Below, piece by piece: positions 1,007-64,000 of a DNA stretch of 64,000 bases. This DNA is from Podarcis vaucheri. Its lineage: Eukaryota. Every line of letters starts with the position of its first letter. Positions within the stretch are counted from its first letter, which is position 1. The position numbers and the translations under genes were made by a program. The stretch lies in NCBI GenBank assembly GCA_965113315.1, contig OZ220365.1; one strand, 5' to 3'. The notes under the pieces were generated by a model. That model saw only the letters and a program-made list of their open reading frames with translations. It searched no databases and was not told the DNA's origin.

Positions 1007-1757
1007 ACTCATCCTGAGCTTACAAATTGGTCCAGCTACAAAACCTGGACAAATGAATGTGTGTTATGCAATCTGGGTCACAATCCATATAGCCTTTTAC
1101 TTCCGTCTACCTCTCTATTTCCTTCCTTTGTGTCTCCTTTCTTGGTCACACAACTGACTCACCTATGATGAGAAGCACATTTTGAGCTTGAATTGAAAGC
1201 AAGTGGGTGGGCCTTGGGTACGCAGGTCGAGTGAATTGACCCTGAGTACAGTGACTATCATGTGGCTGAAAGCAACTTCTGAAGTGGTAGTGAAGTTTTG
1301 GATGCCAGCTTCCAGACACCAGGATTCACTGCAAATCATGCCCTCTGTGGCTCCAATCCTAAATGCTTGCTCCCCTGGGGGCAAGTCCCATTGAACTCAG
1401 CAGGGTGTACTTCTCAGTAAAGGTGGTGCGGTGGTCTAAACACTGAGCCTCTTGGGCTTGCTGATCAGAAGATCGGCGGTTCGAATCCCCATGACGGGGT
1501 GAGCTCCTGTTGCACGGTCCCTGCTCCTGCCAACCCAGCAGTTCGAAAGCACCTCAAAGTGCAAGTAGATTAATAGGTACTGCTCTGGCGGGAAGGTAAA
1601 CGGCGTTTCCGTGGTTCGCCTGAAGCAGCTTAGTCATGCTGGCCACATGACCTGGAAGCTGTACGCCGGCTCCCACGGCCAGTAAAGCGAGATGAGTGCC
1701 TTAACCCCAGAGTCGACCACGACTGGACCTAATGGTCAGGGGTCCCTTTACCTTTAC
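1007..1757 (+). repeat. Left copy of a local inverted duplication (partner 19496-20629)
   Basis: 1007-1255 is the reverse complement of 20381-20629 with 3 mismatches; about 1258-1460 matches about 19808-20010; ORF-track peptides THPELTNWSSYKTW... and KFWMPASRHQD... recur on opposite strands. Confidence 0.95.
1421..1757 (+). mobile_element. Sauria (Squam1) SINE, chimaeric
   Basis: tRNA-like head GGTGG..GTGGTCTAAA, B box GGTTCGAATCC, core GCAAGTAGA.TAATAGGTAC, (ACCTTT)n tail. Confidence 0.95.
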
Positions 1758-17243: not shown

Positions 17244-17333
17244 GGTATCTGAAGAAGTGTGCATGCACACGAAAGCTTATACCAAGAACTAACTTAGTTG
17301 GTCTTTAAGGTGCTACAGGAAGGAATTTTTTTA
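17244..17333 (+). mobile_element. Penelope-like element terminal fragment with minimal hammerhead ribozyme motif
   Basis: GGTAT-CTGAAGA-A-GTGTGCATGCACAC-GAAA-GC-TT-ATACC; same sequence as 39920-40005; flanking repeat TTTCAGG. Confidence 0.8.
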
Positions 17334-19495
17334 TTTCAGGGAACAGAAGATGTAAATGAAGCTCTCAAGGGAACCAGCTCCAGGGAAATGGATGCTGTTA
17401 AAGAAAGAGAGAAAGACCTCTGCTTCTAGGTCTGTTTTGGATTGTTTCATATTTTCTAAGATGCTGAGCCTGTGACAAGACATTGTATGGATATGTTGGT
17501 TGTATCTTTGATACTTATGTCCTGTTCTTGAAGAGTTCTGCAAGTAAAAGTTTAAATAATAGTTTTATGGGCCTGGACAATGATTTCAGAGAGCCTGGTT
17601 TGGACAACTTCTTATTTTATTTATTTTTAATTGCATTCATATCCTGCCTGCTTGCCTGCCTTCCATCAGGGAGCCCAAGGCAGGATTACATGTAGTTCCC
17701 GGGCTATTCCCCAGCGCCAGGCACTGTCCAGACCTGCTTAGCTTCAGCAAGGTGGTGGCTTCACCTGCATTCAGAGAATAGTGAGTGGCACTGCTGGGAG
17801 GCAGCTGATAGGGATGAGGGGGAAACTCCATTCAGTTCACAATTACAGCTGAATCTGGCAAATTTGCAATTTCTGAAATGAGATGACACCTGAAACACAG
17901 CCATCCTTCAAAATCTGCACTTACCGTTACTGGACGCAAGTACAGATCTACTTTATTTTTCCTGTAAAATATAACCTCATGGGATGTCACAAAACGGTCC
18001 TTTAAGGGGATGCCAGTTGCAGCTGCTGCAATTGTGACCCAATGCAAGCACAACAGACTTTTTGTGCCCAGTTCTCTCATTTGCTACCTGAGCTCAGCAT
18101 CCTCCGCTTTGCAAGAAAGGAAATCGTTTCTATAGGTAAAATTGTATGGGAGGAGGGCATGCCAGGGAGGAGATAATTAAATCCGCCAACTATAAGGCAA
18201 GAAGTGATGAAGCTCAAGCAAGCTTCCTTGGGGAGACTGTTCCATGACAGTGGTATAGCTACTGAGAAGGCACTGAGAAGGCCTTTGCGACTTGCAAAAA
18301 AACAGCTACCCCATCATGACATGATAATGATAAAACCACGATCCTAACAGCCCTTGGGGGGCGTATCTGACCAGTGTGACAACTACTCTAGAAATCCTGC
18401 ATGCTTTTGACTCCTCATCTTGCAAGACTTAAAACCTGACTGCTCCTTCTGTTCCATTAGTTAGTTAGTGTCAGCTTTACTTTTAAGCTGAAGTAGCGGA
18501 GGTGTGCCACAACCCCCCCCCCCACAAGGTTACTTCTGAAATTTATGGCTGGTGTCATCATTTACTGGCAGGGAATTAAAAAGGGGAGGGGGAAAGAAGA
18601 AGAAATCAACCTTGGCCTGTTTTGCCACAGACAAATCTATCTATAGCTAAAAATGTGCAGAACCCATAAAAGGGATTTTGCCTGCATAACCTGCAGCTAT
18701 AAATCCCAGCTGGCTGTAGTACCTTGGCACAACGGCTAAGTGATACGTGCAGCCCTCTGGGCTTAAAATGGAGGCCTTTGGGGGAAAGGCGGGGGTGGGG
18801 GGGACTTGCTGAGTTGGTGCATTAATAAATACAAACACAAGGATCTCGTTGGAAGGATTTAAGCAGCAGAGCATGGCAGGAACCCGTGGCGAGTGGCGCT
18901 TGAGCGACAGGCAGTGAGTTTTGATTGAAAACGGGCTATTAATGGATATAATTAAGACACAGTTTCAGTTTAAAGATGAACTGGCCGTAGAGCAGCAAAT
19001 TGTGGAGCACTTATCCTGCTGAGCCATGTAATCAGGGAATGAAGTTGTAATTGTGGCTCTCCTTGTTTTGCTTCTGCCAGAGAAGAGGATATAGGATTCA
19101 ATTTAACAAACAATTTGCCACATGGGTCACCCCTGCTGAGTGGCAAAGCGAACCTTTCTCGGATCTTTTTTCTTCTCCCCGGCATTTCTGCAGCTTTTAA
19201 AACCTGTTACATACAGAGTGACTCATGCAAGATGAAAGCCACGGCAAGGTTACCTGTAGTTCTCAGAAAAAGAACCAAGCGGGGTCTCCTCATCAACACT
19301 TGCCTCCCCTCCCTATTATTTTCAATTTCTAGATCAGCTCCTTGACTGCCCTGCAGCAAACTGGACTCTGGAAAGAACTGACTACTTGCAAACAGTCTCT
19401 CCTTTAGAGACTAAAGTTTCGCATTTTGTGCCTTCTTTGCTATTCCTCAGACACACAGTCTAACAGTGCAACCCAATACAAGGTACTGAGAAGTA

Positions 19496-19850: not shown

Positions 19851-20629
19851 TACTGAGAAGTACACCCTGCTGAGTTCAATGGGACTTCCCCCAGGTGAGC
19901 AAGCATTTAGGATTGCAGCCACAGAGGGCATAATTTGCAACAAATCCTGGTGTCTGGAAGCTGGCATCCAAAACTTCATTATCACTTCAGAACTTGCTTT
20001 CAACCACATGCCGATCATTGTAAAAAGGTAAAGAGACCCCTGACCAGTAGGTCCAGTCGTGGCCGACTCTGGGGTTGCGGCGCTCATCTCACTTTATTGG
20101 CTGAGGCAGCCGGCGTACAGCTTCCAGGTCATGTGGCCAGCATGACTAAGCTGCTTCTGGCGAACCAGAGCAGCGCACAGAAACTCTGTTTACCTTCCCG
20201 CTGGAGTGGACCCTATTCATCTACTTGCACTTTTACGTGCTTTTGAACTGCTAGGTTGGCAGGAGCAGGGACCGAGCAACGGGAGCTCACCCCGTCACGG
20301 CGATTCGAACCGCCTACCTTCTGATCGGCACGTCCTAGGCTCTGTGGTTTAACTCACAGCGCCACCTGTGTCCCTGTACGGTCACTGTACTCAGGGTCAA
20401 TTCACTCGACCTGCGTACCCAAGGCCCACCCACTTGCTTTCAATTCAAGCTCAAAATGTGCTGCTCATCATAGGTGAGTCAGTTGTGTGACCAAGAAAGG
20501 AGACACAAAGGAAGGAAATAGGGAGGTAGACGGAAGTAAAAGGCTATATGGATTGTGACCCAGATTGTATAACACACATTCATTTGTCCAGGTTTTGTAG
20601 CTGGACCAATTTGTAAGCTCAGGATGAGT
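19851..20629 (-). repeat. Right (probably ancestral) copy of the inverted duplication, interrupted by a second SINE
   Basis: Reverse-complement match to 1007-1420. Confidence 0.95.
20023..20374 (-). mobile_element. Sauria SINE, full length
   Basis: GGGAC head to ACCTTT tail on minus strand; diverged TSD CGATCATTGTA / CGGTCACTGTA. Confidence 0.95.
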
Positions 20630-39790: not shown

Positions 39791-40005
39791 AGATAGGTAG
39801 CCGTGTTGGTCTGCCATAGTCAAAATAAAAAAAATCCTTCCAGTAGCACCTTAAAGACCAACTAAGTTAGTTCTTGGTATGAGTTTTCGTGTGCATGCAC
39901 ACCTGCATGCATACATGTGTATCTGAAGAAGTGTGCATGCACACGAAAGCTCATACCAAGAACTAACTTAGTTGGTCTTTAAGGTGCTACTGGAAGGAAT
40001 TTTTT
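39791..40005. mobile_element. Penelope-like element, inverted (palindromic) terminal-repeat pair with hammerhead motif
   Basis: About 70-bp inverted arms; CTGAAGA...GAAAGCTC core at 39923; 13-bp TSD TGTTAACAACTAC at 39778-39790 and 40006-40018. Confidence 0.88.
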
Positions 40006-40357
40006 TGTTAACAACTACTGATTTACAAAAAAACCTGTCAATTTTGTATCCTTATTCTTGGCACAAATTATTCTGTATATAGAGGAACAGGTGGATCATT
40101 CCATTCATTTGGACTGCTCTTAACCATTTTTGGGAGACTGACTAAAGGCTCCCCTTCACAGCTTGCTCTACAATAGTAACATTCCAGATCTTTGTGTTTT
40201 GAAGTGTCACCTCCAAGCTATCGATCCACCTTATCATCGCTGCAGCTGTCGGACCAGAGCAGCAAATTCTTTGCAGTCCTGGCTTACAAGTTCTACCCTT
40301 AGGAAGGTTAGCTGGGGTTTAACCCAAACACATTTTAAAACAGTACTCCTGTATATA

Positions 40358-50850: not shown

Positions 50851-50872
50851 CTTAAAAGTAGGAGGGCAAAGA

Positions 50873-51757
50873 GCCTAGGACCCACGTACCTACAGGACCG
50901 CCTCTCCTGGTATGCCCCACGGAGGACCTTGAAGTTCACAAACGACAACACTTTGGAGGTCCCAAGTCGCAAGGTGGTTAGATTGGTCTCAACTAGGGCC
51001 AGGGCCTTTTCGGTACTGGCCCCGACTTGGTGGAACGCTCTGTCACAAGAGACTAGGGCCCTGCGGGACTTGACATCTTTCCGCAGGGCCTGCAAGACAG
51101 AGCTGTTCCGCCTGGCCTTTGGTTTGGACTCGGTCTGACCCTTATGTTTCCCTCCCCTTTTGGTTTTGATCTATGGGCTACTATTAAAATGAGGCTGCAT
51201 TTCAAATTGCATTTTTAACCTGTACAGTGGTACCTCGGGTTAAGTACTTAATTCGTTCCAGAGGTCTGTTCTTAACCTGAAACTGTTCTTAACATGAAGC
51301 ACCACTTTAGCTAATGGGTTAATTTAACTATACCCATATCTGCTATGGTCACTGGTGGAAACAAACTTCTCAGGTAACAATATACAGTGGTACCTCGGGT
51401 TAAATACTTAATTCATTCCGGAGGTCCATACTTAACCTGAAACTGTTCTTAACCTGAAGCACCACTTTAGCTAATGGGGCCTCCTCCTGCTGCTGTGCCA
51501 CCGGAGCATGATTTCTGTTCTCATCCTGAAGCAAAGTTCTTAACCCGAGGTACTATTTCTGGGTTAGCAGAGTCTGTAACCTGAAGCGTATGTAACCTGA
51601 AGGGTATGTAACCCGAAGCACCACTGTATTTTAAATTGGTTCACTCTCCACTATTATGTTTTTATTGTAATTTTCCTGGTGTTAGCCGCCCTGAGCCTGG
51701 CTCTGGCTGGGGAGGGTGGGGTATAAATAAAAATTTATTATTATTTATTTGTATTAT
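50873..51757 (+). mobile_element. L2 LINE 3' end carrying a composite MITE insertion
   Basis: TRARAFSVLAPTWWNAL...ACKTELFRLAF*; 3' UTR and TTA-rich tail. Confidence 0.9.
51225..51626 (+). mobile_element. Composite MITE: partial copy (51225-51318), 65-bp filler, full copy (51385-51626)
   Basis: Two CAGTGGTACCTCGGGTTAA starts, one right TIR, TA flanks. Confidence 0.93.
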
Positions 51758-52167
51758 TAAAGACAGAGGGCACTTAGCAGCACCTGTAGAAGTGACAAAT
51801 GAGGAAGTGGGAGAGACGAGGTGATGGAGATTCACTTGGGACAATGCCATTATCCAAGAAGCTGGTTTCTAAAGCCTCTCTCTGTAAAGATTGAATTCAA
51901 AAAGGACTGTAAGAAACTTTCCCCTGTCTTTATACTTTCCTGAGCAACCAGCCGGGAGCTGCTGACAGCATCCTGACAATAGCGGGAGAATTCACATAAT
52001 GTTTGCATGCCCAACATCTTATGCTCCAAGAAGCTATGCACATCCTGCTACTCTCATATATTGTCATGGGCCTCAAACAGTCTTGACAAAGAAGAGAATG
52101 CATCTTTGAGAGATGGAATATTCTGACATTCTCATTCTATGCCAGGGGAAATCCATCATTAGAATTA

Positions 52168-52812
52168 CCGTATTTTTTGCACCATAACACTCACTTTTTT
52201 CCTCCTAGAAAGTAAGGGGAAATGTCTGTGCGTGTTATGGAGTGAATGCCTACGGATGGCGGGGGATCTGGTGCAATCGTGAGCAGAGGATCCATGGTTC
52301 CCCTTCCTTCCCTCCTCCGTGGCTCGCTTTGAAACAGCAAAGCGAGAGAAGAGCCGCTGAGTGGGGAGGAGAGAGGGACAGAGAGCCTGCTTGCTTTAAA
52401 GGAGCAAAGCAGTGTAAGCGGCTCCTGTCTGGTTGGCTCCTTTAAAGCAAGCAGGCTCTCTGTCCCTCTCAGCTGACTAAATAGCAGCAAAGTTTTCCAG
52501 TGAGCCAGGGAGGAGGGAGAAAAGCATCTTCTGCATTATTAACAGCATCTTTCTCCACCCACCCCACGCGTGTTCCTTGTCCCTTGAGTGCTTTTCCTTC
52601 CCTCCCCACTTAAAACATGGTTACAAAGCACGGATCCACATGGATCCTCAGGATTTTTGCATTGGGCTACCTCAAACTCACTGTCAGATCACATGTCTGT
52701 GGCCACAGCATGAACCACAAAAATCATACATCCACTGTTTCGTTTAGAATATTTTTTTTTCTTGTTTTCCTCCTCTAAAAACTATGTGCGTGTTATAGAA
52801 CGAAAAATATAT
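52168..52812 (+). mobile_element. CCGTATTTT-family non-autonomous element
   Basis: Both ends homologous to 24693-25363; right TIR degraded. Confidence 0.85.
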
Positions 52813-52974
52813 GTGTTCTGTTTGGAATAATTTGGCTGTTTCTTGGTGCAGACCAAGGTCATTGAGCCTGAGCTTCCATAACCACTGCCCGCCATGAAGT
52901 ACCATGGACAGGATTGGCAGTAACAGCAGCAAATATGTTCTGTGCTTATGATAATACTTTATTCTCTTGCCAAT

Positions 52975-53215
52975 TGTGCTGCCATAAATGTGCATTTTAA
53001 ATTTGACTTCCTTTAGTAATGTTTTCTTTTCAAATGTTTATTTTTTATTGTTTTGCTAATGTTGCTGCATTAAATGTGCATTCTGTAGTTGACTTCCTTT
53101 GTAATGTTTTTATTTTGAAATCTTGAAGATAACATTTTTGTTAATTATGTTGCTTTGAATGGATACTTTATATTTGACTTTCTTCTGTAATGTTTTATTC
53201 TAGATAGTTTTATTT
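52975..53215. repeat. Degenerate tandem repeat, about 3 x 85-86 bp
   Basis: AATG...TTGACTT...GTAATGTTTT recurs from 52985, 53071 and 53156. Confidence 0.7.
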
Positions 53216-54443
53216 GATGTTTTAATGTAGGTTGAGATTGTTTTCTTAAAATATGTAAAGTAATAAAATTATCATAATGAATCATCATCATCATCAAAAT
53301 AGTGAAAGTCAGCAGAGAACTTTAAGACATATTTTTTAATGTGGGGAATTTTTATTCCATATAATGTCATTTTTATGTGTTTAAATTGTTATGCCCAGCC
53401 TTTAAAATGAGTATATAGGCTATAAATCTAAAAAAAAACAAGTAAACAAAATTCATTTTAAAAATCCAGCCACATTTAGGATTTATACAGCCACTGATTC
53501 CACTACTTGTCACCCAGATGCCAAAAATATTGTAGTGCATCCTATATTTCAGTACTTACAATTATCAAAATAGAACCAAAACAATTTATTTTGTTTTATT
53601 TAAATGCTAGTCATTTTTTCGACTTTGGATTTTGAAAATTGTAAGCTTTAATGCTTTCCTAATTTAAATGCAGGTTATAAAGCTCTGGCCTAACTAATCT
53701 CTAGAAATCTGATCACCCTCCTTAATAGCAATTCTCTAATGCAAACACTCTCATCTTTTTGTCAATAAATCCTTCTCAATTTATTTAGATCTACTGGCTG
53801 AGCATAACCACTGGCATATTCCCTGTAGTTACATCCCACTGTATCAGAGAAGATGGATAAAAGGTCAACAAATTCAACTCCTGAAGGGCCATTGGGAAAT
53901 GCAAATTCTACTTTGAGCACACATACAGAAGTTTGGGTGGAAGGAAAGACCACCTGCTCAGTTACCTTCCTGGTCAGTGATGTCATGAGATTTTAGTTTG
54001 TCGAACTCAACCTGGGACAGCTGCCACCAGAAATCGAGCTGTCTCCCTATATGCTTCATTTAGCAGAGGCCATCTGTATATCAGAACTACCTCTGAGGCT
54101 AAAAGACAGGAAGAGAGCATCAGGAAGACGCTGGAGTGCTAATCAAAGTCAGAAGATGACTATCGGGCTTCTGTGAAAACGGTCTGTTAGCTTTTTATTG
54201 GAGCTGTACAAGACAAATCTGAGTCTATTGGCTTTATTTTCTGGGGGAACTGCTACAGTATTATCTCCACTCTTAACATCTACCTCTCAAACATTTTAGA
54301 GAAGGGGAGGAGAGGGACAACAGTTGTCTTCAGCTGCACACAAGGAGGGGGTTACATCAACATTATTATTTTTTGAATGTACTAATTGCAAAGAGAAGTA
54401 CGTAGACCTTGACTGAACATTTAGCCTTCAGGCCTCTTAATTA

Positions 54444-54496
54444 TCTTCTTCTTCTTCTTCTTCTTCTTCTTCTTCTTCTTCTTCTTCTTCTTCTTC
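54444..54496. repeat. (CTT)n microsatellite
   Basis: Direct reading. Confidence 0.95.
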
Positions 54497-55911
54497 TCTT
54501 GTTACATTTTCCTCCAAACAAAGCCCAAAGCTATAAAATCACCAGGCTTAATCTTCACTTCAAGAACCAAAAGCCACCTGTGTCTCACTGGAGATGTCCT
54601 AACCTGAAAGTTGTGCCGTGTACTAAGTTGTGCAGTTAGGTTATTAGACTCTGTGCTTAATGGTTTTATGAGTGCCCAGGACTTTAGATGGTAGATGGTA
54701 TTGTTGGTTGGTTGGTTGGATGGTTAGATGGTATTGTGTATTAGCTACCCCTACTGCATTTGGGGGTCTTCCCACTCATTCTGTTGAGTGGGGCCCTGGA
54801 CTTCTGCTCTAAAGTCCTAACCTAATGGTGCAGTAGCATTCTCCAGTTCTTGTCAAAGTGAATTACATACTCATTAACCACTGACTGATCACACAATACT
54901 AGACCTCACTCTATATAAACATTTGACCATATTTCTTATCTCCAGAATAACTCATCCTCACCCCAAGGCTTTCTGAACTCTGCCTGCTTCCGTGACAGCA
55001 GTACCACACACTCCTCCTGCTATGGGCTGGCTTCAGAACAGGTGTGGTTCCATTATCCTTGGCCATTGGACGTTCTTTCTGGGACTGATGGGAGTTGTCC
55101 TTCAGCAACATCTGGAAGGTCACCTCCTTTAGAGATAAACAAGAATATTCTTCTTTTCTGATTCATTAGGGGAAAGATACTAAATTAGTCTCCTAAATGT
55201 ACACCTTGGGAGTCCAAACAGGGCAAAGGGGAGTTCTAGTGGAAGGAACCCCTAACTTCACAGTGGGTCAAAACAACTCCTCTAGCCCCGCTTCCAAATC
55301 TTGCTCCAGCTATGGATGTATTCACATGTCCCCTTTCCAGTAAGGAATACTGGGTTGGATTCAACAAAGTGGTCCACTTCACACAATGACTTCTGTTTGT
55401 ATAACATAGCTTATTCTCATGCCCTTCCCCTGAGGATTGGGGTGGACTCCAAGAACAGACTGGGTGGGTGTGTGGTAGAGAAGGAAGAGAAGGAAAATTA
55501 TATTATTGCCTTGCCCATTTCTCTGTTTGTGCTGCCAGGAAATTATGACCCAAATTTATAGCTCAACTCTGCATGCCTTTCCCCCCTTTGCTATGGCACA
55601 TAACTAAGTAAATAAAGTTGTTACTGTTACTCAGGGCCAGCCCAATGATAAAGCAAAGTGAGGCAGCTGCCTCAGACAGCAGGTGCTGAGGTGCAGGGAG
55701 TGGACAGTGTTGGGGGTGCTACATGGCCTGCCCTGTCCCCATACGCTAGCCTTCTGTCCTCAACTGCGGTCCTTTAACCAGTATTGGACCAGTATTCAAC
55801 TACCAGTCCAGTTGGCCCCTGTATATTCCCTGAGAGAGAACGCCATTGTGCCTCAGGCAGCAAAATATATTGAGCCGGCTTTACTGTTAGTGTTACCCTG
55901 GGTGTTCCTTC

Positions 55912-56178
55912 CCAGTGTGGTGTAGCGGTTAAGAGCGGTAGTCTCGTAATCTGGGGAACCGGGTTCGTGTCTCCGCTCCTCCACATGTAGCTGCTGGGTG
56001 ACCTTGGGCTAGTCACACTTCTCTGAAGTCTCTCAGCCCCACTCACCTCACAGAGTATTTGTTGTGGGGGAGGAAGGGAAAGGAAAATGTTAGCTGCTTT
56101 GAGACTCCTTCAGGTAGTGATAAAGCGGGATATCAAATCCAAACTCCTCCTCCTCCTCCTCCTCTTCTTCTTCTTCTT

Positions 56179-56208
<30 letters not shown>
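55912..56208 (+). mobile_element. Squam3-type SINE with long (CTC)(CTT) tail
   Basis: Near-identical to 48655-48915. Confidence 0.93.
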
Positions 56209-56209
<1 letters not shown>

Positions 56210-57978
56210 TCTGCCTGCTTGCCTCTAGGAAGGCAAGCCAGGAGGAGGTAGAAGAAATGTGGATGCTTTGTGTACATTAGCATTGGTTTCCTCTTCTCTT
56301 GCTAAGTCTAGGCCAGGCTTCCAGGGTGGGTGTGTCCCCTGCAGGACAGGAGGCTTCAGGACAACTTCAACCCATTGTGACATAGGGATCATTGCTGGAA
56401 ATGGATACATATTTTATATATATCCAATGACAGTCTTTTCAAGAATCTGCAGACTAAGCTTTTTGTTGCACTGACATAAATCCAGAGCGGAAAGTCAGTG
56501 CCTTAATACATGGCCATTGAGATGAGCATTTATGGAATGCTTTCTGCTGTAGCCAAACATTTCAATGTGAGCATTTCATGTCATTCTATTTTGAAATGCT
56601 TCAAGATAATGTGACATGCCAAAATAGCTTAAGCAAAAATAGTTTTATCCTAAGCATGGCAGAACAATAAAACATTCTGTTTCTTGACATACAGCCTAAA
56701 TTATACTTTCAGAAAAGCATTATTGCTTCTGAAGTGGCGAATTTCGAAAGTTTGATTATTTTTTGTCCCAGACTACTTCATTGTGAGTTTTTCTTTTTAA
56801 TTAAAATGAATATAGTCTCTTATCATTGCCAGCTTAAAAAAAACCAAACAAACCCAAAGGTGTTACATCTTTCAAGGGTTTTCATGCTAAATCCATGTTA
56901 ACAAAACAAATTCTGTGTCCTACGTTTCTAAGGCATATGAGGTGTCACTTTCCTATTTAAGATTTGTATGCTAACACGCTCCCCCCAACTCTCAGTTAAA
57001 TTCTGTGTGTTGCTGCTCCAACTAAACCTTCATAATTGCACATTGAGAAATCTGTTCTTTGCTTTCTTGGGATGCGGCACTAGCATCAACCTGACTGAGG
57101 AATACTCCAATATAAAGGGGAAGAGAAAGAAATGCAGGCAACATGTCAATCTATAAGACTCGGAGCTGCAGAATCTAACCCATTTTGAAGGGATTAGGAA
57201 GTAATGCTAAATGTTCTCCAGGGTCAATTTTTGCCTCAAGAGTATCTATTTCAGGGGACTGAAATTCTCTCCACATGCCCAATGCGATGACATCAGAGCA
57301 CAACGTACCTAATCTGATTTAGCTGTATCTGGCAATCGACAGACCACCCTTTCCTCCAATGAATTGTACGTTTCTGAAACATTGTGATTAGGGCAGCCAA
57401 AGCACCTGCTCTCCCTTTGCCATCCCAGGGCAAGTGAGAGCTGACAATGACCTTTTGCAGGGATTCCTCAGGGTTTCAGGGAAACAGCTGTGCAATCTCA
57501 CACCTTTTTTGGTCTTTTTACGACTTGCGTGGCTCAGGTGTGCTCATAGTGCCCTATTTGCTGCAGTGCATAAAATGCCTAGGGTTTTGTTTTTTTACTG
57601 AATATAGGCAGATGCTTAGAAAGGCCAAATAAGAACCCACAGGCAGACTGGCTTCTTTTGTTTTTGGAGAGATTACACCCCATCTGAGGTCGCCTCCACT
57701 GTCAGTATTTTGCAGGAGGGGTTCTCTCCCCCCCCCACACACTGGGGATTTTACTTTGCACAATTAAAGTGGATTAGAGAACTCTGTTGCCCTAGCACAA
57801 CAAATCCACTTTAAAAAGTAAGAGATGGACTTCTTGCAGCTAGGAAAGTTTCAGGGAAATAAATGGAAAAGTGTGGGATGAATGATTAATTAATTAATTA
57901 ATTAAATAGGAAGACAGAGAAATGCTCCACAATCAAATCAGGAAGAAAACTCATTTCAGTATTAAATAACAGGCTGCA

Positions 57979-58598
57979 GTTGTTGGCATTCATCTGTCTC
58001 AGGAGGCAATGGATGAGTTTGCCTTGGGGGGTGAAGTCAAACCATTGGACGGTTACAGCACCTACTGTGGCTCCAGAGATCAATACGGGAGAGACATGTT
58101 TTATTGCAGCTGGGGCAGATGAAAGCATCTGGTTGCAGGTGTACCATGGCGTTTCTTCTTTCGGTGCTCATCCCAATGGTCATGCCTCCTCTGGTCAGTG
58201 CTGTGGACGCATGACCTGACTGTCTGTCTCTGGGCACTGTGGTCATCTGCATGGGATTCCAACACAATGAGGTTGATGCTGCCAGCCATCATGTCATGTT
58301 TGTAGGCATCTTTGAAACTCGGAGTTGGTCTGTCAACGAGCCTGGTGCCTGTAGAGCACATCCTTGTGAATCTTGCCGTTTTCCGTTCTGTGTACATGAC
58401 CAAGCCAGTGTATATGTCTCTGAGACAGGAGTGCAAACATACTGGGAATGTGGGCTTGGGAGAACTCTTCTTCGAGACTCTGTCCTGCCATGTGGTGCCC
58501 AAAATCTTCCAGATGCAATGCATGTGGAAGGCATTGAGGCATCGCTCCTGGGAGTTGTAAGTTGCCCATGACTCACTACCATAATGCAGTGTGCTCAA
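57979..58598 (-). mobile_element. RTE-clade LINE 3' fragment
   Basis: Minus peptides STLHYGSESWATY...LNAFHMHC..KILG..WQDRV, WLGHVHR and the zinc knuckle FICPSCNKTCLSRIDLWSHSRCC; (CAA)n end. Confidence 0.92.
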
Positions 58599-59610
58599 CC
58601 TGCCAGCCTAGCAGTCTTGGTATCTTGGTATTGGATATTAGCATCACTTTCTCCCATACCTTTCTGGAGAGACGGGCAGTAGCAATTCTGTTTCCCAGTG
58701 TGTTAGAGTGGGCCTCTTGCTAGGCAGAATTTACTTGTTATAGCTGTCACTGCATGTTGGTACTGCAAGCCATTGTAGGGAAAGGTAATATATGAGATGC
58801 ATCAGCTGTGGAAGGGCCACAGAAGGTCAGAGTACTTGATGTACTCTTAAGAGAGGAATATATCCTAAAATAGATAATGGTGTGCATGTTAATGGAGAAT
58901 TTGAAAAAGGTGTTTTCCCCTCCCAGAAGCTGAATTAAAATACCATTTTACATGTTTAATATTTGAAATGTGCTCTCAGGGAAGAAATCTTGATTTTAGA
59001 TATTTGATCCAGCCTCTCTTTATGAGCTGCCACAACCCTTTATAACCATTCTTCCTTTACCCTGAGATTCCCTTCTAATCAAACTGATCCGTTGAAAAAA
59101 GAAGAGAGGCTTAGCTGACATGTCACCTGGCTTACCCCAGTCATAGAATTCAGCCCAGTGAGAGCAAGATCTGAAACGATGTACATAAAGAAACCGTCAA
59201 AGGAAGACGCCTGCTTTTGCTCTCAACTACCTGAATATTGTGAAAATCTTTGGCTTTTTCCACAACGAAAAAAGAGCAGGAAGATGTGGAGAGAGGAAAG
59301 TCACTGGGTGAGAGAACAAAGGCACTGCTTCTGGTCTGTTGCTCACTTTTCAGAGTCTGATGTCGGAAGGGCAGCCAGATAATCTTGTCCAAACCAGCGA
59401 CAGCTCACACCTACTGTTCCCATTAAAAAAACAGAACAAAAACCATCTGATTAAAGTAGCACAGTCTTTAGTAATCAGGTGCTACACAGATCACCTAAAA
59501 ATGTCAAGTTAGAAATGGTGACTACGATGGTTGAACTCAACGGGCCTTACTTTTAGGTAAGTAGGTATGGAGTTGCAGCCTTAGAAACATTTGTGCACAT
59601 TTTCCTGGGA

Positions 59611-59983
59611 GTAAAGGTAAAGGGCCCCTGGACAATTAAGTCCAGTCGAATTCGACTTTGGGGTGCATCTCCACTTTCAGGCTGAGGGAACCGGCGTTTG
59701 TCCTCAGACAGCTTTCTGTGGTCATGTGGCTAGTATGACTAAACCACTTCTGGTGCAATGGAACACCATGACAGAAGCCAGAATGCATGGAAATGTCGTA
59801 TACCTTCCCGCTGCAACAGTACCTATTTATCTACTCGTGCTGGTATGCTTTCAAACTGCTAGGTTGGCAGGGGCTGGGACAGAGCAACAGGAGCTCACTC
59901 TGTCGTGGGGCTTCAAACCGCCGACCTTCCAATTGGCAAGCCCAAGTGGCTCAGTGGTTTAAACCACAGCGCCACCCATGTCC
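59611..59983 (-). mobile_element. Sauria SINE
   Basis: Full-length Sauria sequence; flanks TCCTGGGAGTAA / TCCTGGTAGTAA. Confidence 0.93.
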
Positions 59984-60078
59984 TGGTAGTAAGACCCATT
60001 GAACACAGTGAAATGAGTGAGTATGCATAGGACTGGGCTGTAAAGATGTGAAGGACAACAAATGTTTCCAGATGTGGT

Positions 60079-61219
60079 AAACAGCAGTCAGCAATCAGAT
60101 ATTTTGTGGCCATCATTCACACACCAGCTGACTGTTCACTAGTTTGGGTGGATACCGAGCACAAAATATGCTTCAGAGTGGCGATGGAATGTGGCTTGGG
60201 ATGCCAACTTGGCCTACCAGAGCACGTCAGAGTTTCCTGGATATTGATGCACGGTATGTGCAATGAAGAGTTTTTTGCCGATTGCGAAGGCCAGGGGGTC
60301 TCCCTCCGCATTGATTGTGCAGCTGGGAGTGAACGAGTTGCCCTTGCAGAAGGGTGTAAACTTGAGATCAAGCATTGAAAAGGACTTGGAGGAGTTGTCA
60401 ACAACGTTCCCCAAAAACGACACTTTTGTGGTCACAACTCCTGGAAAGACGCGTTTAGCACAACCGTCTTTGCCCAGCTGCCACTAACAAAGCCAGGAAA
60501 CTCTTGCATCGAGCTGTGATGTGCAAGGTGTTGTCACTGGGTGGCCAGGTGATGTGCCACCCAGGACTTGCGTACCACAATGAGGTGCTTTACCGTGCAG
60601 ATGGCATTCATCTTTCTGACTCCAGAAATGATGTGTGATTGGCCAATATTATCAAATGCATAAGAGGCTGGTTGCAGGTGTGAGTGTATTGGTGGCGAAC
60701 TTTGGGCTTGTGTGGTGGTTAGACATTGGAATAGCGATGTGTGGGGGAGGGGAGGTGCAGCCATCACCTGCCCCTCCGTACTCAAGGGTATTCCAATAAA
60801 GGAATCCCGGGGTGTGGATCTTGTCCGAAGCCAGGGGAGGGGCTAGGGCCATGCCACGACCCCAGCGGGAACCCAGGGGATGCTCAAGTCGATCCACATT
60901 GGCGGGACTCCCCCTACTGGTGGTTTACCCTTACCAGGCTCCCTGCAAGGCGGGCAGGAGTCAGATATAGTCTGTTGATGCCAATGCCTAAGCCAATACC
61001 ACTCACATTCTGTAACCAATAAAGTTTTGGCCTAAATTTTGCCCATTAACATTAACCTAAAATTCTGTGTCCTTGTGTCTTTATTCTCATGGGGGTGGCT
61101 TAGAACTGTGGCATGCAAACAGCAGTCAGCAACAGATATTTTGTGGCCATCATTCACACACCAGCTGACTGTTCACTAGCTTGGGTGGATACTGAGCACA
61201 AAATGTGCTTTAGAGTGGC
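60079..61219 (+). repeat. About 104-bp direct repeat (60079-60182 and 61117-61219) flanking a retroelement fragment
   Basis: Direct alignment: 4 substitutions and 1 indel. Confidence 0.95.
60183..61118 (+). mobile_element. 3' fragment of a Ngaro-type (DIRS order) retrotransposon with disrupted SGNH-hydrolase ORF
   Basis: Across two frameshifts: QLGLPEHVRVSW...PSALIVQLGVNEL (block III-like)...LWSQLLERRV*...LYRADGIHLS (DxxH block V)...IRGWLQV* ending at 60683, then a GC-rich UTR and AATAAAGTTTTGGCC. Confidence 0.8.
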
Positions 61220-62488
61220 CCATATAATTTTTAAGTTATGTAGAAGTACCTCTGAAAAAAACATCTAGGCATAGCTCTAGGAAAGATAGATCTATCAACA
61301 TATTTTTTTATAGACTTTTGAAAGACACTGATAAAATCAATGAATAAATCAAATGGTAGTCAAGGTTTTTTTTTAATACAAAAAAATCAAATGTGGAACC
61401 AAAATATTAGAATAGCAGGTGGTGAAAAATGATTGTAGAATATATATGGGGAAATGGGCAGGAGACAGTCATCCTAACAGTGATAAGCTGGAGAGAGAAC
61501 TGTCTTCTTACAGTCCCAAATCATGTAAATGAAAAACAGAAATCATTACACACTTGGATCCCCAGGAGTAACTGAGAGAAGAGAATGGATTTCAGAATAG
61601 CTTTCCCCGTGAGATGAAACTGTGTAATACAATTGGAAATTGATTTGAAGGCATCTGCACACATATATAGGGCAGTTTAAAACTCATGTATACACTTCAC
61701 CTGCTTTTCCATTCTCTATTTTTGCTATTCAGGAATGGAAGGATATCTGATAGTATGTATTTTTGAGTGAGTAAAAATATGAGTTATAACCTCTCAGTTT
61801 GGATTTGGTGTCCTGATGCAGAGAGCTTCCTAGCCTGTCAGTCAACAAATGTCATCTGAAAGGAAAATCCTTCTTCCACATTCTTCCCCATCTCTGGTTT
61901 CTATGAACACACACACACACACACAAATATATATATGAAAATAACAAGTTACAGTGACTTTTTTGTTCAGTACAGGAATGGCACACAGTTACAAAATCCA
62001 TATTAATAGGACAAAAAAAATCAGGTTAACTGGTGAACTAAGAAAAGCAAAACATGAAATAGCAGTAGGGTAATACCATTATATAAAAAGAGGCATGAAA
62101 TTTAACAAATGTATAAACAAAGCTAGTTTTTCCATCAGCCAAATTGGTACTGGTGATAGTATAGTACCAGAGACTGCTAAGAGAAGGAATGGGGTAGCTC
62201 GGGTCCAGGGAGCATATGTGGACCTCCAGACTTCCCTACCTGGCCCTCACGACTCTCCACAGTCCACACAACCTCCCAGCCAAGCCCCTCACCAGGTATG
62301 CTTGAATGTATTTGGCTGGATGGAATGTGTCTTGGACTCTGATGATGCTTCTTGCTTGCCTGAATGGAGGATAGAAAGGGATGTAGTAATTGCGAAGAAG
62401 CTCTAGCTTCCATTGTTGAACTTAAATGTGGAGTCTCACCTCCATAGCTGTGTGATCTGTAATTTAACTACACCCATATCTGCTATGG

Positions 62489-62843
62489 GTGGCGCTGTGG
62501 GTAAAACCTCAGTGCCTAGGACTTGCCAATCGTATGGTTGGTGGTTCGAATCCCCACGGCGGGGTGAGCTCCCGTTGCTCGGTCCCTGCTCCTGCCTACC
62601 TAGCAGTTCGAAAGCACTTCAAGTGCAAGTAGATAAATAGGTACCGCTTTATAGCGGGAAGGTAAACGGCATTTCCGTGTGCTGCGCGGGTGCTGGCTCG
62701 CCAGAGCAGCTTCGTCACGCTGGCCACGTGACCCGGAAGTGTCTGCGGACAGCGCTGGCTCCCGGCCTCTTGAGATGAGCGCACAACCCTAGATGCGGAC
62801 ACGACTGGCCCATATGGGCAGGGGTACCTTTACCTTTACCTTT
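62489..62843 (+). mobile_element. Sauria SINE, young
   Basis: Many CpGs retained, (ACCTTT)3 tail, perfect 13-bp TSD ATATCTGCTATGG at 62476-62488 and 62844-62856. Confidence 0.97.
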
Positions 62844-64000
62844 ATATCTGCTATGGTCACTGGTGGAAACAAACTTCTCAGGTAACAATATAGCCAGATC
62901 ATGGAATGATTCCAGTCCTTCTCTGTGAGGTTAGTCAATCAAGTTAAAGCTCAAAAGAAGGGACTCTTGTGATAGGTTGTGGAACTGAGCATTTAAGTTG
63001 CCTATCTATGGATTGTTTTAATGTATTCTCTCTTGTATACACCAATATTGATCACATCAGCTTCACCCTCCAGATTCTTTCCCTTGATTGAGTGAAATTT
63101 CCTAGCATTTGAAGTGCACATTGCATTTTTAATTTCTCAGGCAATGTTTGAATGGCAAAATGGGGAAATCTGCCAAATTATGAACATTTTTCATGTTCAC
63201 TTCAGCTCTCATTTGTTTCCAAGGAAAAAAGAAAAGTACTTGGCAAAGGAAGGGAGTGTATGACCAAGAATTAGAGCAGACACTCAGAAATATGATCTAT
63301 GAAGGGATTTAACTCCTCGTCATTTCCAACATCCAACTCTGATTGGGAAGCAGAACTACCTTTGATCATGTTCCATTTATTCCTTGAATTTAAGAAAAAA
63401 ACCTGTCCTCTTTCTTAAAATGCACATCCAAACTTCACACTGCATTGAGAGAAATTCTGCTTTTTGGAGAAGGTCAAAATATGAAAAGGCGAATTTCTTT
63501 GCCTTCAGAATGAGTGATTGCTCTCTTGTTTAGCAGTGTTGTGTTATTCTGTGCCAGAACTTCTCATTCACAAATCACTGGAGAGGACAAAGGAGATTAT
63601 TACTGCTCTTTGAAGTAAAGCAAGGGTTAGGGTCTGCATTGTGTATGTGTGTGACAGAAGACAGAAGGGAGTGTTTAACAGCTCAGAAAGTACAATATTT
63701 TTGAATCTGATGATGAAATGAAACTGCGTAAATCTCAATAGCAGGAAAAAATATTTCAGAAGGTACAATAACAAAGAATAAAACTCTTGAATAAGGAGCT
63801 GGGTGTCTTTGAATGGGCTCATTCTTATGTAAAGATTCCTATTGGCCTGAACTCCATTCATCAGTTTGTTCTAAGGAAGCATTTTGTATTCTGTGTTCAA
63901 AGGAAAAGTTTATGGTTAGCATTTCATGACGTTCGTGTGGTGATGGGTTAAAGTATTGACATTTTTAATGAATGCACCTGAATGAATAGGAAAATTTATA

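What the first reader, a model, noticed from the sequence alone, without database searches (positions are those of the whole stretch)
51225..51626. MITE composite holds a 65-bp fossil of the pre-SINE allele of a locus 11 kb away
Seen: filler 51320-51384 equals 62460-62488 joined to 62857-62892 with one mismatch in 65 bp, which is the 62.5-kb locus with its Sauria SINE and one TSD copy removed. The filler sits between a 94-bp MITE 5' fragment and a full MITE, ends in TATA right at the second TIR, and the whole unit occupies one TA site in an L2 3' UTR. Inference: templated capture from a nearby locus during gap repair, or local hopping of a MITE that once sat at the TA near 62892. It predates the SINE or was copied from a SINE-free haplotype. 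With outer TIRs present, the unit could move host DNA in Pack-TIR fashion.
Basis: partly seen in the sequence, partly recalled or inferred. Interest (0 to 1): 0.7.

Follow-up and report, generated by a model that had tools for sequence, protein, structure and literature searches.

The report
Transposon repair scar preserving pre-SINE allele
A small DNA transposon in this reptile genome carries a 65-base copy of nearby DNA as it was before a later retrotransposon inserted there; it is likely a one-off DNA-repair accident, useful for ordering events but with no sign of function or spread.

Summary
Filler 51320-51384 equals 62460-62488 plus 62857-62892 with one mismatch and has two places in the genome. 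The unit MITE 5' arm (94 bp) + T + filler + full MITE sits in one TA of a LINE 3' end (18 of 19 paralogues). Contigs of two related organisms run across the donor with the SINE and one TSD missing, so the filler matches a real pre-SINE allele. The composite has not spread. The full MITE looks mosaic: a subfamily-B marker in its 5' arm on a subfamily-A 3' half (marker in 1 of 46 A-type, 9 of 17 B-type copies). Best reading (0.4): a break in the resident MITE was repaired by copying from a second, now lost, MITE at the donor TA, overshooting 65 bp into its flank. No MITE or footprint is seen at that TA in four relatives. It works like a single-copy Pack-TIR (Tan 2021) but fails the >100-bp criterion and duplicates an arm. 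Neat, neutral, low interest.

The parts
50872..51755 (+).
   Evidence: 93-95% to most paralogues from 50872; RVT_1 in a frame upstream of one paralogue, 1 of 4 frames tested; A/T-rich tail near 51735-51755
51223..51224 (+). left TA target-site copy
   Evidence: single TA in 18 of 19 LINE paralogues
51225..51318 (+). MITE 5' arm, positions 1-94, subfamily-A-like (46T)
   Evidence: 3 differences from family majority, none shared with the full copy
51319..51319 (+). extra T at the left junction; junction 7-mer GGGTTAA also occurs in the TIR (51237, 51397)
   Evidence: reading as a templated end-joining insertion is inference
51320..51384 (+). 65-bp filler, copy of the SINE-free donor allele, ending in TA
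   Evidence: 1 mismatch to 62460-62488 + 62857-62892; same join seen in contigs of organisms D and E
51385..51626 (+). full 242-bp TA-duplicating MITE; 46A in the 5' arm on an A-type 3' half; two changes in the 3' TIR (51617, 51619)
   Evidence: 3' junction matched with 0 differences over 95 bp in organism A
51627..51628 (+). right TA target-site copy
62460..62488 (+). donor, left part, including SINE TSD copy 62476-62488
62489..62843 (+). SINE with (ACCTTT)n tail (Sauria-type), absent in organisms D and E, present in A and F
   Evidence: tail as described for Sauria SINEs in PMC13295347
62844..62856 (+). second SINE TSD copy (13 bp)
62857..62892 (+). donor, right part; ends at the TA (62891-2) where a template MITE is inferred to have sat
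   Evidence: 36 of 36 bases identical to filler; no MITE or footprint in 4 of 4 runs

Best explanation
The composite is a single-copy scar holding a 65-bp copy of the SINE-free donor allele, and it likely formed when a double-strand break inside a resident MITE was repaired by one-sided copying from a second MITE that would then have sat at the donor TA 11.5 kb away. Shown: the resident element occupies one TA of a LINE; the filler is the donor's SINE-free form; the full copy has a subfamily-B marker in its 5' arm and an A-type 3' half. Inferred steps: (1) an A-type MITE at 51225 broke near position 94/95; (2) the right end paired with a B-type copy in the same orientation at 62891-2 and copied back through that copy's 5' arm, its TA and 65 bp of flank; (3) the extended end was joined to the left end with at most 1 bp of microhomology and an extra T; (4) the template MITE was a segregating insertion that was lost or lay on another haplotype; (5) the SINE entered the donor later, or on another haplotype. 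No transposase is needed for steps 1-3, and no function is implied.
For: The filler ends exactly at a TA abutting MITE base 1, as an insertion flank would; TA-TA is an enriched left context (31 of 205 ends). The duplicated arm (94 bp) loses nothing of the resident element. Fragment and full copy share 0 of their 7 differences from the majority in positions 1-94. 46A occurs in 9 of 17 B-type but 1 of 46 A-type copies not selected on that site (Fisher p=9e-6), yet the full copy is A-type at 138/162/165/167. The family is dense, 30 hits in 600 kb, so neighbouring templates were common. SINE-free donor contigs exist in D and E. Cis bias under 15 kb is typical of single-copy Pack-TIRs (56.9%, PMC8277862).
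Against: No MITE or footprint at 62892 in the window or in 4 of 4 runs; the template is unseen. G right after the TA is a disfavoured target (21 of 205 ends vs 20% background; GC 2 of 205). The case for two copies rests on one site: 46A perfects an internal quasi-palindrome, 10 of 24 A-type copies in the similarity-selected set carry it, and the copy's two 3' TIR changes match an internal repeat, so templated change within the element may have made it. No second example of this architecture was found.
Confidence: 0.4

Rival explanations
1. Gap filling with two template switches and no second MITE (Tan-type): synthesis stalled at MITE position 94, copied 65 bp from the donor, and returned to the same MITE at its TA by 2-bp microhomology, perhaps at a transposase nick.
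For: Needs no unseen element; donor is clean in 4 of 4 runs. Distance, 2-bp microhomology and single copy match the published pattern. Filler and arm divergences are compatible with one age (non-CpG 3/86 vs 1/65, p=0.63).
Against: Return exactly at the TSD is unexplained without a cut there. It predicts identical arms at birth, so 46A must arise later (1 of 46 A-type copies), and it must follow insertion quickly (shared-time fraction under about 0.42 at 95%). Published gap-filling cases have small gaps (median 4.6% of the TE) and internal breakpoints.
Confidence: 0.27
2. One transposase event involving a MITE at the donor TA: either a local hop from 51225 to 62892 followed by gap repair from the new copy, or sister-chromatid (hybrid-end) transposition from 62892 into the unreplicated TA at 51223 with aborted re-replication, like maize Composite Insertions.
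For: Predicts the outer TA duplication, the TA-flush filler, a short local distance and, for hybrid-end transposition, an emptied donor. Composite Insertions have this layout: TE termini outside, donor flank inside, end-joined junction (PMC4270019). No shared derived change fits an event during the burst.
Against: Both arms would come from one element, so the 46 T/A difference is unexplained. Maize re-replicated segments were 4.8-18.9 kb, against 94 and 307 bp here. No excision footprint at the donor.
Confidence: 0.22
3. Two steps: a MITE excised, abortive gap repair left the 94-bp arm plus filler joined at the TA, and an unrelated MITE later inserted into that TA.
For: Explains two different arms; the junction context (TA-TA-TT) is a favoured target.
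Against: Needs a second hit on one given TA (about 50 copies per Mb, so roughly 1 in 1000 TA sites) by a copy of a rare type (46A, A-type).
Confidence: 0.09
4. Misassembly.
For: No listed contig spans the two filler junctions in any of the 4 runs (tables were cut).
Against: The arms differ at 7 of 94 sites, four of them CpG-type, and the filler differs from the donor; the SINE-free join exists nowhere else in the assembly yet is the true allele in D and E; the right junction is matched in organism A.
Confidence: 0.02

Closest known systems
Single-copy Pack-TIRs of animals, gap-filling model (Tan et al. 2021, PMC8277862; abstract, Results section on gap filling, Methods section and passages read; supplements not seen)
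   Same: Non-TE DNA between arms of one TIR family, one copy, same chromosome, parent under 15 kb away, short microhomology.
   Different: Filler is 65 bp (their cut-off is >100 bp); the parent is now split by a SINE, which their filters would discard; the 5' arm is duplicated instead of a small gap being replaced; one breakpoint lies at the terminus; the arms may come from two copies.
Composite Insertions from alternative transposition of maize Ac/fAc (Zhang et al. 2014, PMC4270019; passages and Discussion read)
   Same: TE termini outside, donor-flank DNA inside, one TSD, end-joined internal junction, nearby target.
   Different: There two separate reversed ends and kb-size tracts, often with a tandem duplication; here 94 + 307 bp, no tandem duplication of the 11-kb interval, no donor element seen.
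Templated insertions at double-strand breaks (Min et al., 10.1101/2022.09.30.509517; abstract only); one-sided invasion and synthesis-dependent end joining (recalled)
   Same: Donor contact, invasion or annealing, then end joining at the acceptor.
   Different: Those are induced or somatic events in cells; this is a germline event embedded in a transposon.

Membership tests
Pack-TIR (Tan 2021 operational definition) | non-TE sequence flanked by two TIR TEs of the same element, each covering at least 10 bp of the termini | tested here: met
   5' arm 1-94 on the left, full copy on the right
Pack-TIR (Tan 2021 operational definition) | internal sequence longer than 100 bp and under 5000 bp | tested here: not met
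   65 bp; criterion
Pack-TIR (Tan 2021 operational definition) | unique parental copy at 90% identity or more | tested here: met
   2 of 2 candidates: itself and donor; 64 of 65
Pack-TIR (Tan 2021 operational definition) | length ratio to parent 80-120% and no TE within 100 bp of the parent | tested here: not met
   parent now spans 433 bp with the SINE inside; the ratio would be met against the D/E allele
Multicopy (transposed) Pack-TIR | further copies with distinct TSDs | tested here: not met
   no other filler copy; 39 other listed hits of 5764 candidates cover only the full MITE part
Gap-filling Pack-TIR | plain TE without the capture at the orthologous site in outgroups | tested here: inconclusive
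   organism A has the same 3' junction; filler junctions not listed in any run; tables cut
Composite Insertion (alternative transposition) | whole unit flanked by one TSD | tested here: met
Composite Insertion (alternative transposition) | donor element beside the duplicated flank | tested here: not met
   none at 62892 in the window or 4 of 4 runs; loss cannot be excluded
Composite Insertion (alternative transposition) | reciprocal twin product | not testable with these tools
   ancient event
Tc1/mariner-type MITE | TA duplication and short TIRs, no ORF | tested here: met
   TA on the left in 28 of 29 and on the right in 29 of 29 copies; 18-bp TIR; superfamily name is recalled
Tc1/mariner-type MITE | autonomous partner with matching TIRs | not tested
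   not searched
Sauria SINE | (ACCTTT)n tail and 10-20 bp TSD | tested here: met
   described in PMC13295347 passages. TSD here starts with A, not the usual T

The most novel reading that the evidence does not exclude
The unit is a vertebrate Composite Insertion: the two ends of one MITE on sister chromatids inserted together into an unreplicated TA 11.5 kb away, re-replication aborted after 94 and 307 bp, and the donor was emptied. Such events would be a transposase-driven route to Pack-TIRs in animals that current pipelines miss.
Probability: 0.1. Interest if true: 0.6.

Novelty: new variant of a known kind. Interest (0 to 1): 0.3.

Why it matters
It is a clean case of a repair scar that records two things no longer in the genome: a pre-SINE allele (confirmed in relatives) and, probably, a lost transposon insertion. 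If the layout arm + flank + full element recurs in this family of about 50 copies per Mb, it gives a way to count lost insertions, order TE insertions without outgroups, and shows a capture route below the Pack-TIR size cut-off. As a single 65-bp non-coding, non-spreading event it has no evident biological effect.

Tried and rejected
Dispersed-repeat origin of the 65-mer: rejected. Spread of the composite: none seen. Look-alike L019 (98-bp arm + 918 bp + full copy): its spacer has no donor, only an old repeat inside, so it is not a second case; L088, L017, L091, L070, L074 are ordinary truncations, an insertion or a deletion. A genome-wide survey for arm-gap-arm pairs could not be run, so recurrence is open. 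Absence of the composite in D, E, F: depth at 51325-51349 equals the donor contig alone (5.65, 7.99, 34.3) and donor contigs are unbroken, but contigs cannot show absence, so this is not used as evidence. Organism A shows unexplained extra depth there (34.3 vs 18.8), which may be a filler or a donor-junction contig. One search collapsed copies with equal 5' ends; it was redone by place (121 copies; 63 with a called base at 46 in the unbiased A/B test, 2 gaps dropped). In one search I tallied position 72 by mistake; position 70 was tallied (70A in 1 of 79 unbiased hits, so private). Dating by SINE divergence (11/292 non-CpG, 7/62 CpG) vs MITE divergence did not separate the events. Earlier findings look-ups returned nothing. 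Paper searches listed no report of this layout in animals; the library is partial and only listings were seen for most hits.

Full report
Observation. The window shows, in order, TA (51223-4), MITE positions 1-94 (51225-51318), a T, a 65-bp filler (51320-51384, ending in TA), a full 242-bp MITE (51385-51626) and TA. The filler equals 62460-62488 joined to 62857-62892 with one mismatch at 51331, that is the donor without its SINE (62489-62843) and one 13-bp TSD. A search of the 1.6-Gb own genome found two places only, and both donor flanks are single-copy. In 18 of 19 paralogues of the host LINE the sequence runs through a single TA, so the whole unit occupies one target site. The MITE family has TA on the left in 28 of 29 and on the right in 29 of 29 near copies and about 50 hits per Mb (30 in 600 kb).

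Relatives. Of 24 runs listed I laid four, each from a different coded organism. At the donor, single contigs of D (X5) and E (X6) go from 62475 to 62844 with nothing between; their pieces differ from the window at 25 of 722 and 17 of 744 bases. So the SINE-free allele is real and identical in layout to the filler. A (X15) and F (X17) have contigs that begin inside the SINE tail and so carry the SINE. All four run through 62892 with no MITE and no gap there. At the composite, A has a 95-bp contig across the full copy's 3' junction with no difference, including its private changes; A could be close to the assembly's own source, so this is limited support. No listed piece spans the filler junctions in any run, and the tables were cut. 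Depth in the filler bin is explained by the donor contig alone in D, E and F and shows an unexplained excess in A. I draw no conclusion of absence.

The two arms. Against the family majority the fragment has 3 changes and the full copy 4 in positions 1-94, none shared. Copies not selected on this region average 3.8 changes, so if both arms came from one element the duplication followed insertion soon (shared fraction under about 0.42). Filler and arm divergences are compatible (p=0.63). One difference is informative. The family has two types, told apart at 162/165/167; 46A occurs in 9 of 17 B-type and 1 of 46 A-type copies. The fragment has 46T; the full copy has 46A with an A-type 3' half. 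This is what is expected if the fragment and the 3' half are the resident element and the second 5' arm was copied from a B-type neighbour. The caveat is real: 46A perfects an internal inverted repeat, such A-type 46A copies exist (10 of 24 in the similarity-selected set), and the same copy has two 3' TIR changes that match an internal repeat. I put the weight of this site at roughly five- to tenfold (my estimate).

Mechanism. Any model must explain a filler that ends flush with a TA at MITE base 1, a duplicated arm with no loss, one outer TSD, and a donor 11 kb away. One-sided copying from a MITE that sat at the donor TA explains all of these and the mosaic, at the price of an unseen, lost insertion in a mildly disfavoured context (G after TA in 21 of 205 ends). 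I give it 0.4. Gap filling with a return at the TA by microhomology needs no unseen element but leaves the exact return point and 46A to chance (0.27). A single transposase event, local hop plus repair or hybrid-end transposition with aborted re-replication, explains the geometry but not 46A, and the tracts are far shorter than the 4.8-18.9 kb of maize (0.22). Two separate insertions at one TA are unlikely (0.09). The left junction has at most 1 bp of microhomology and an extra T; the junction 7-mer also lies in the TIR, a weak hint of synthesis-dependent end joining (mechanism recalled). The order relative to the SINE is open: either earlier, or copied from a SINE-free haplotype.

Comparison. 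Tan et al. 2021 (PMC8277862) report 370 animal Pack-TIRs; 160 of 281 lie under 15 kb from the parent and most single copies are ascribed to gap filling. This unit works like those but fails their length and parent filters, and differs in duplicating an arm with a breakpoint at the terminus; they note that their pipeline may miss cases with TEs linked to the parent. It shares the layout of maize Composite Insertions (PMC4270019) but lacks a visible donor element. Supplements of these papers were not seen and may list similar cases. It has not moved as a unit.

Verdict. Real, well supported as a fossil of the pre-SINE allele, probably also of a lost MITE insertion; a structural variant of a known kind of capture, single-copy and non-coding. 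Interest 0.3.

Noticed in passing
window 60079-60182 and 61117-61219: A 104-bp direct duplication at 95% identity about 1 kb apart; may be another local templated duplication or a repeat.
   Followed up: no
window 39823-40009: Two inverted copies of an about 90-bp sequence, head to head; a third copy lies at 17245-17336.
   Followed up: no
window 52371-52470: 42-bp arms, 95% complementary, 16-bp loop.
   Followed up: no
MITE family, genome-wide: Two sequence types (162/165/167 C-G-T vs T-A-C, with 46A and 138T linked to the second); target preference for T or C next to the TA.
   Followed up: partly
window 51617, 51619: Two changes in the 3' TIR make it match the internal repeat at 51450-51469, as if templated within the element; shared with organism A.
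   Followed up: partly
L070:1501-2372: A MITE copy split by a 610-bp insertion with an about 20-bp duplication.
   Followed up: no
window 1007-1255 and 20381-20629: 249-bp inverted pair at 98.8% identity, a young repeat.
   Followed up: no
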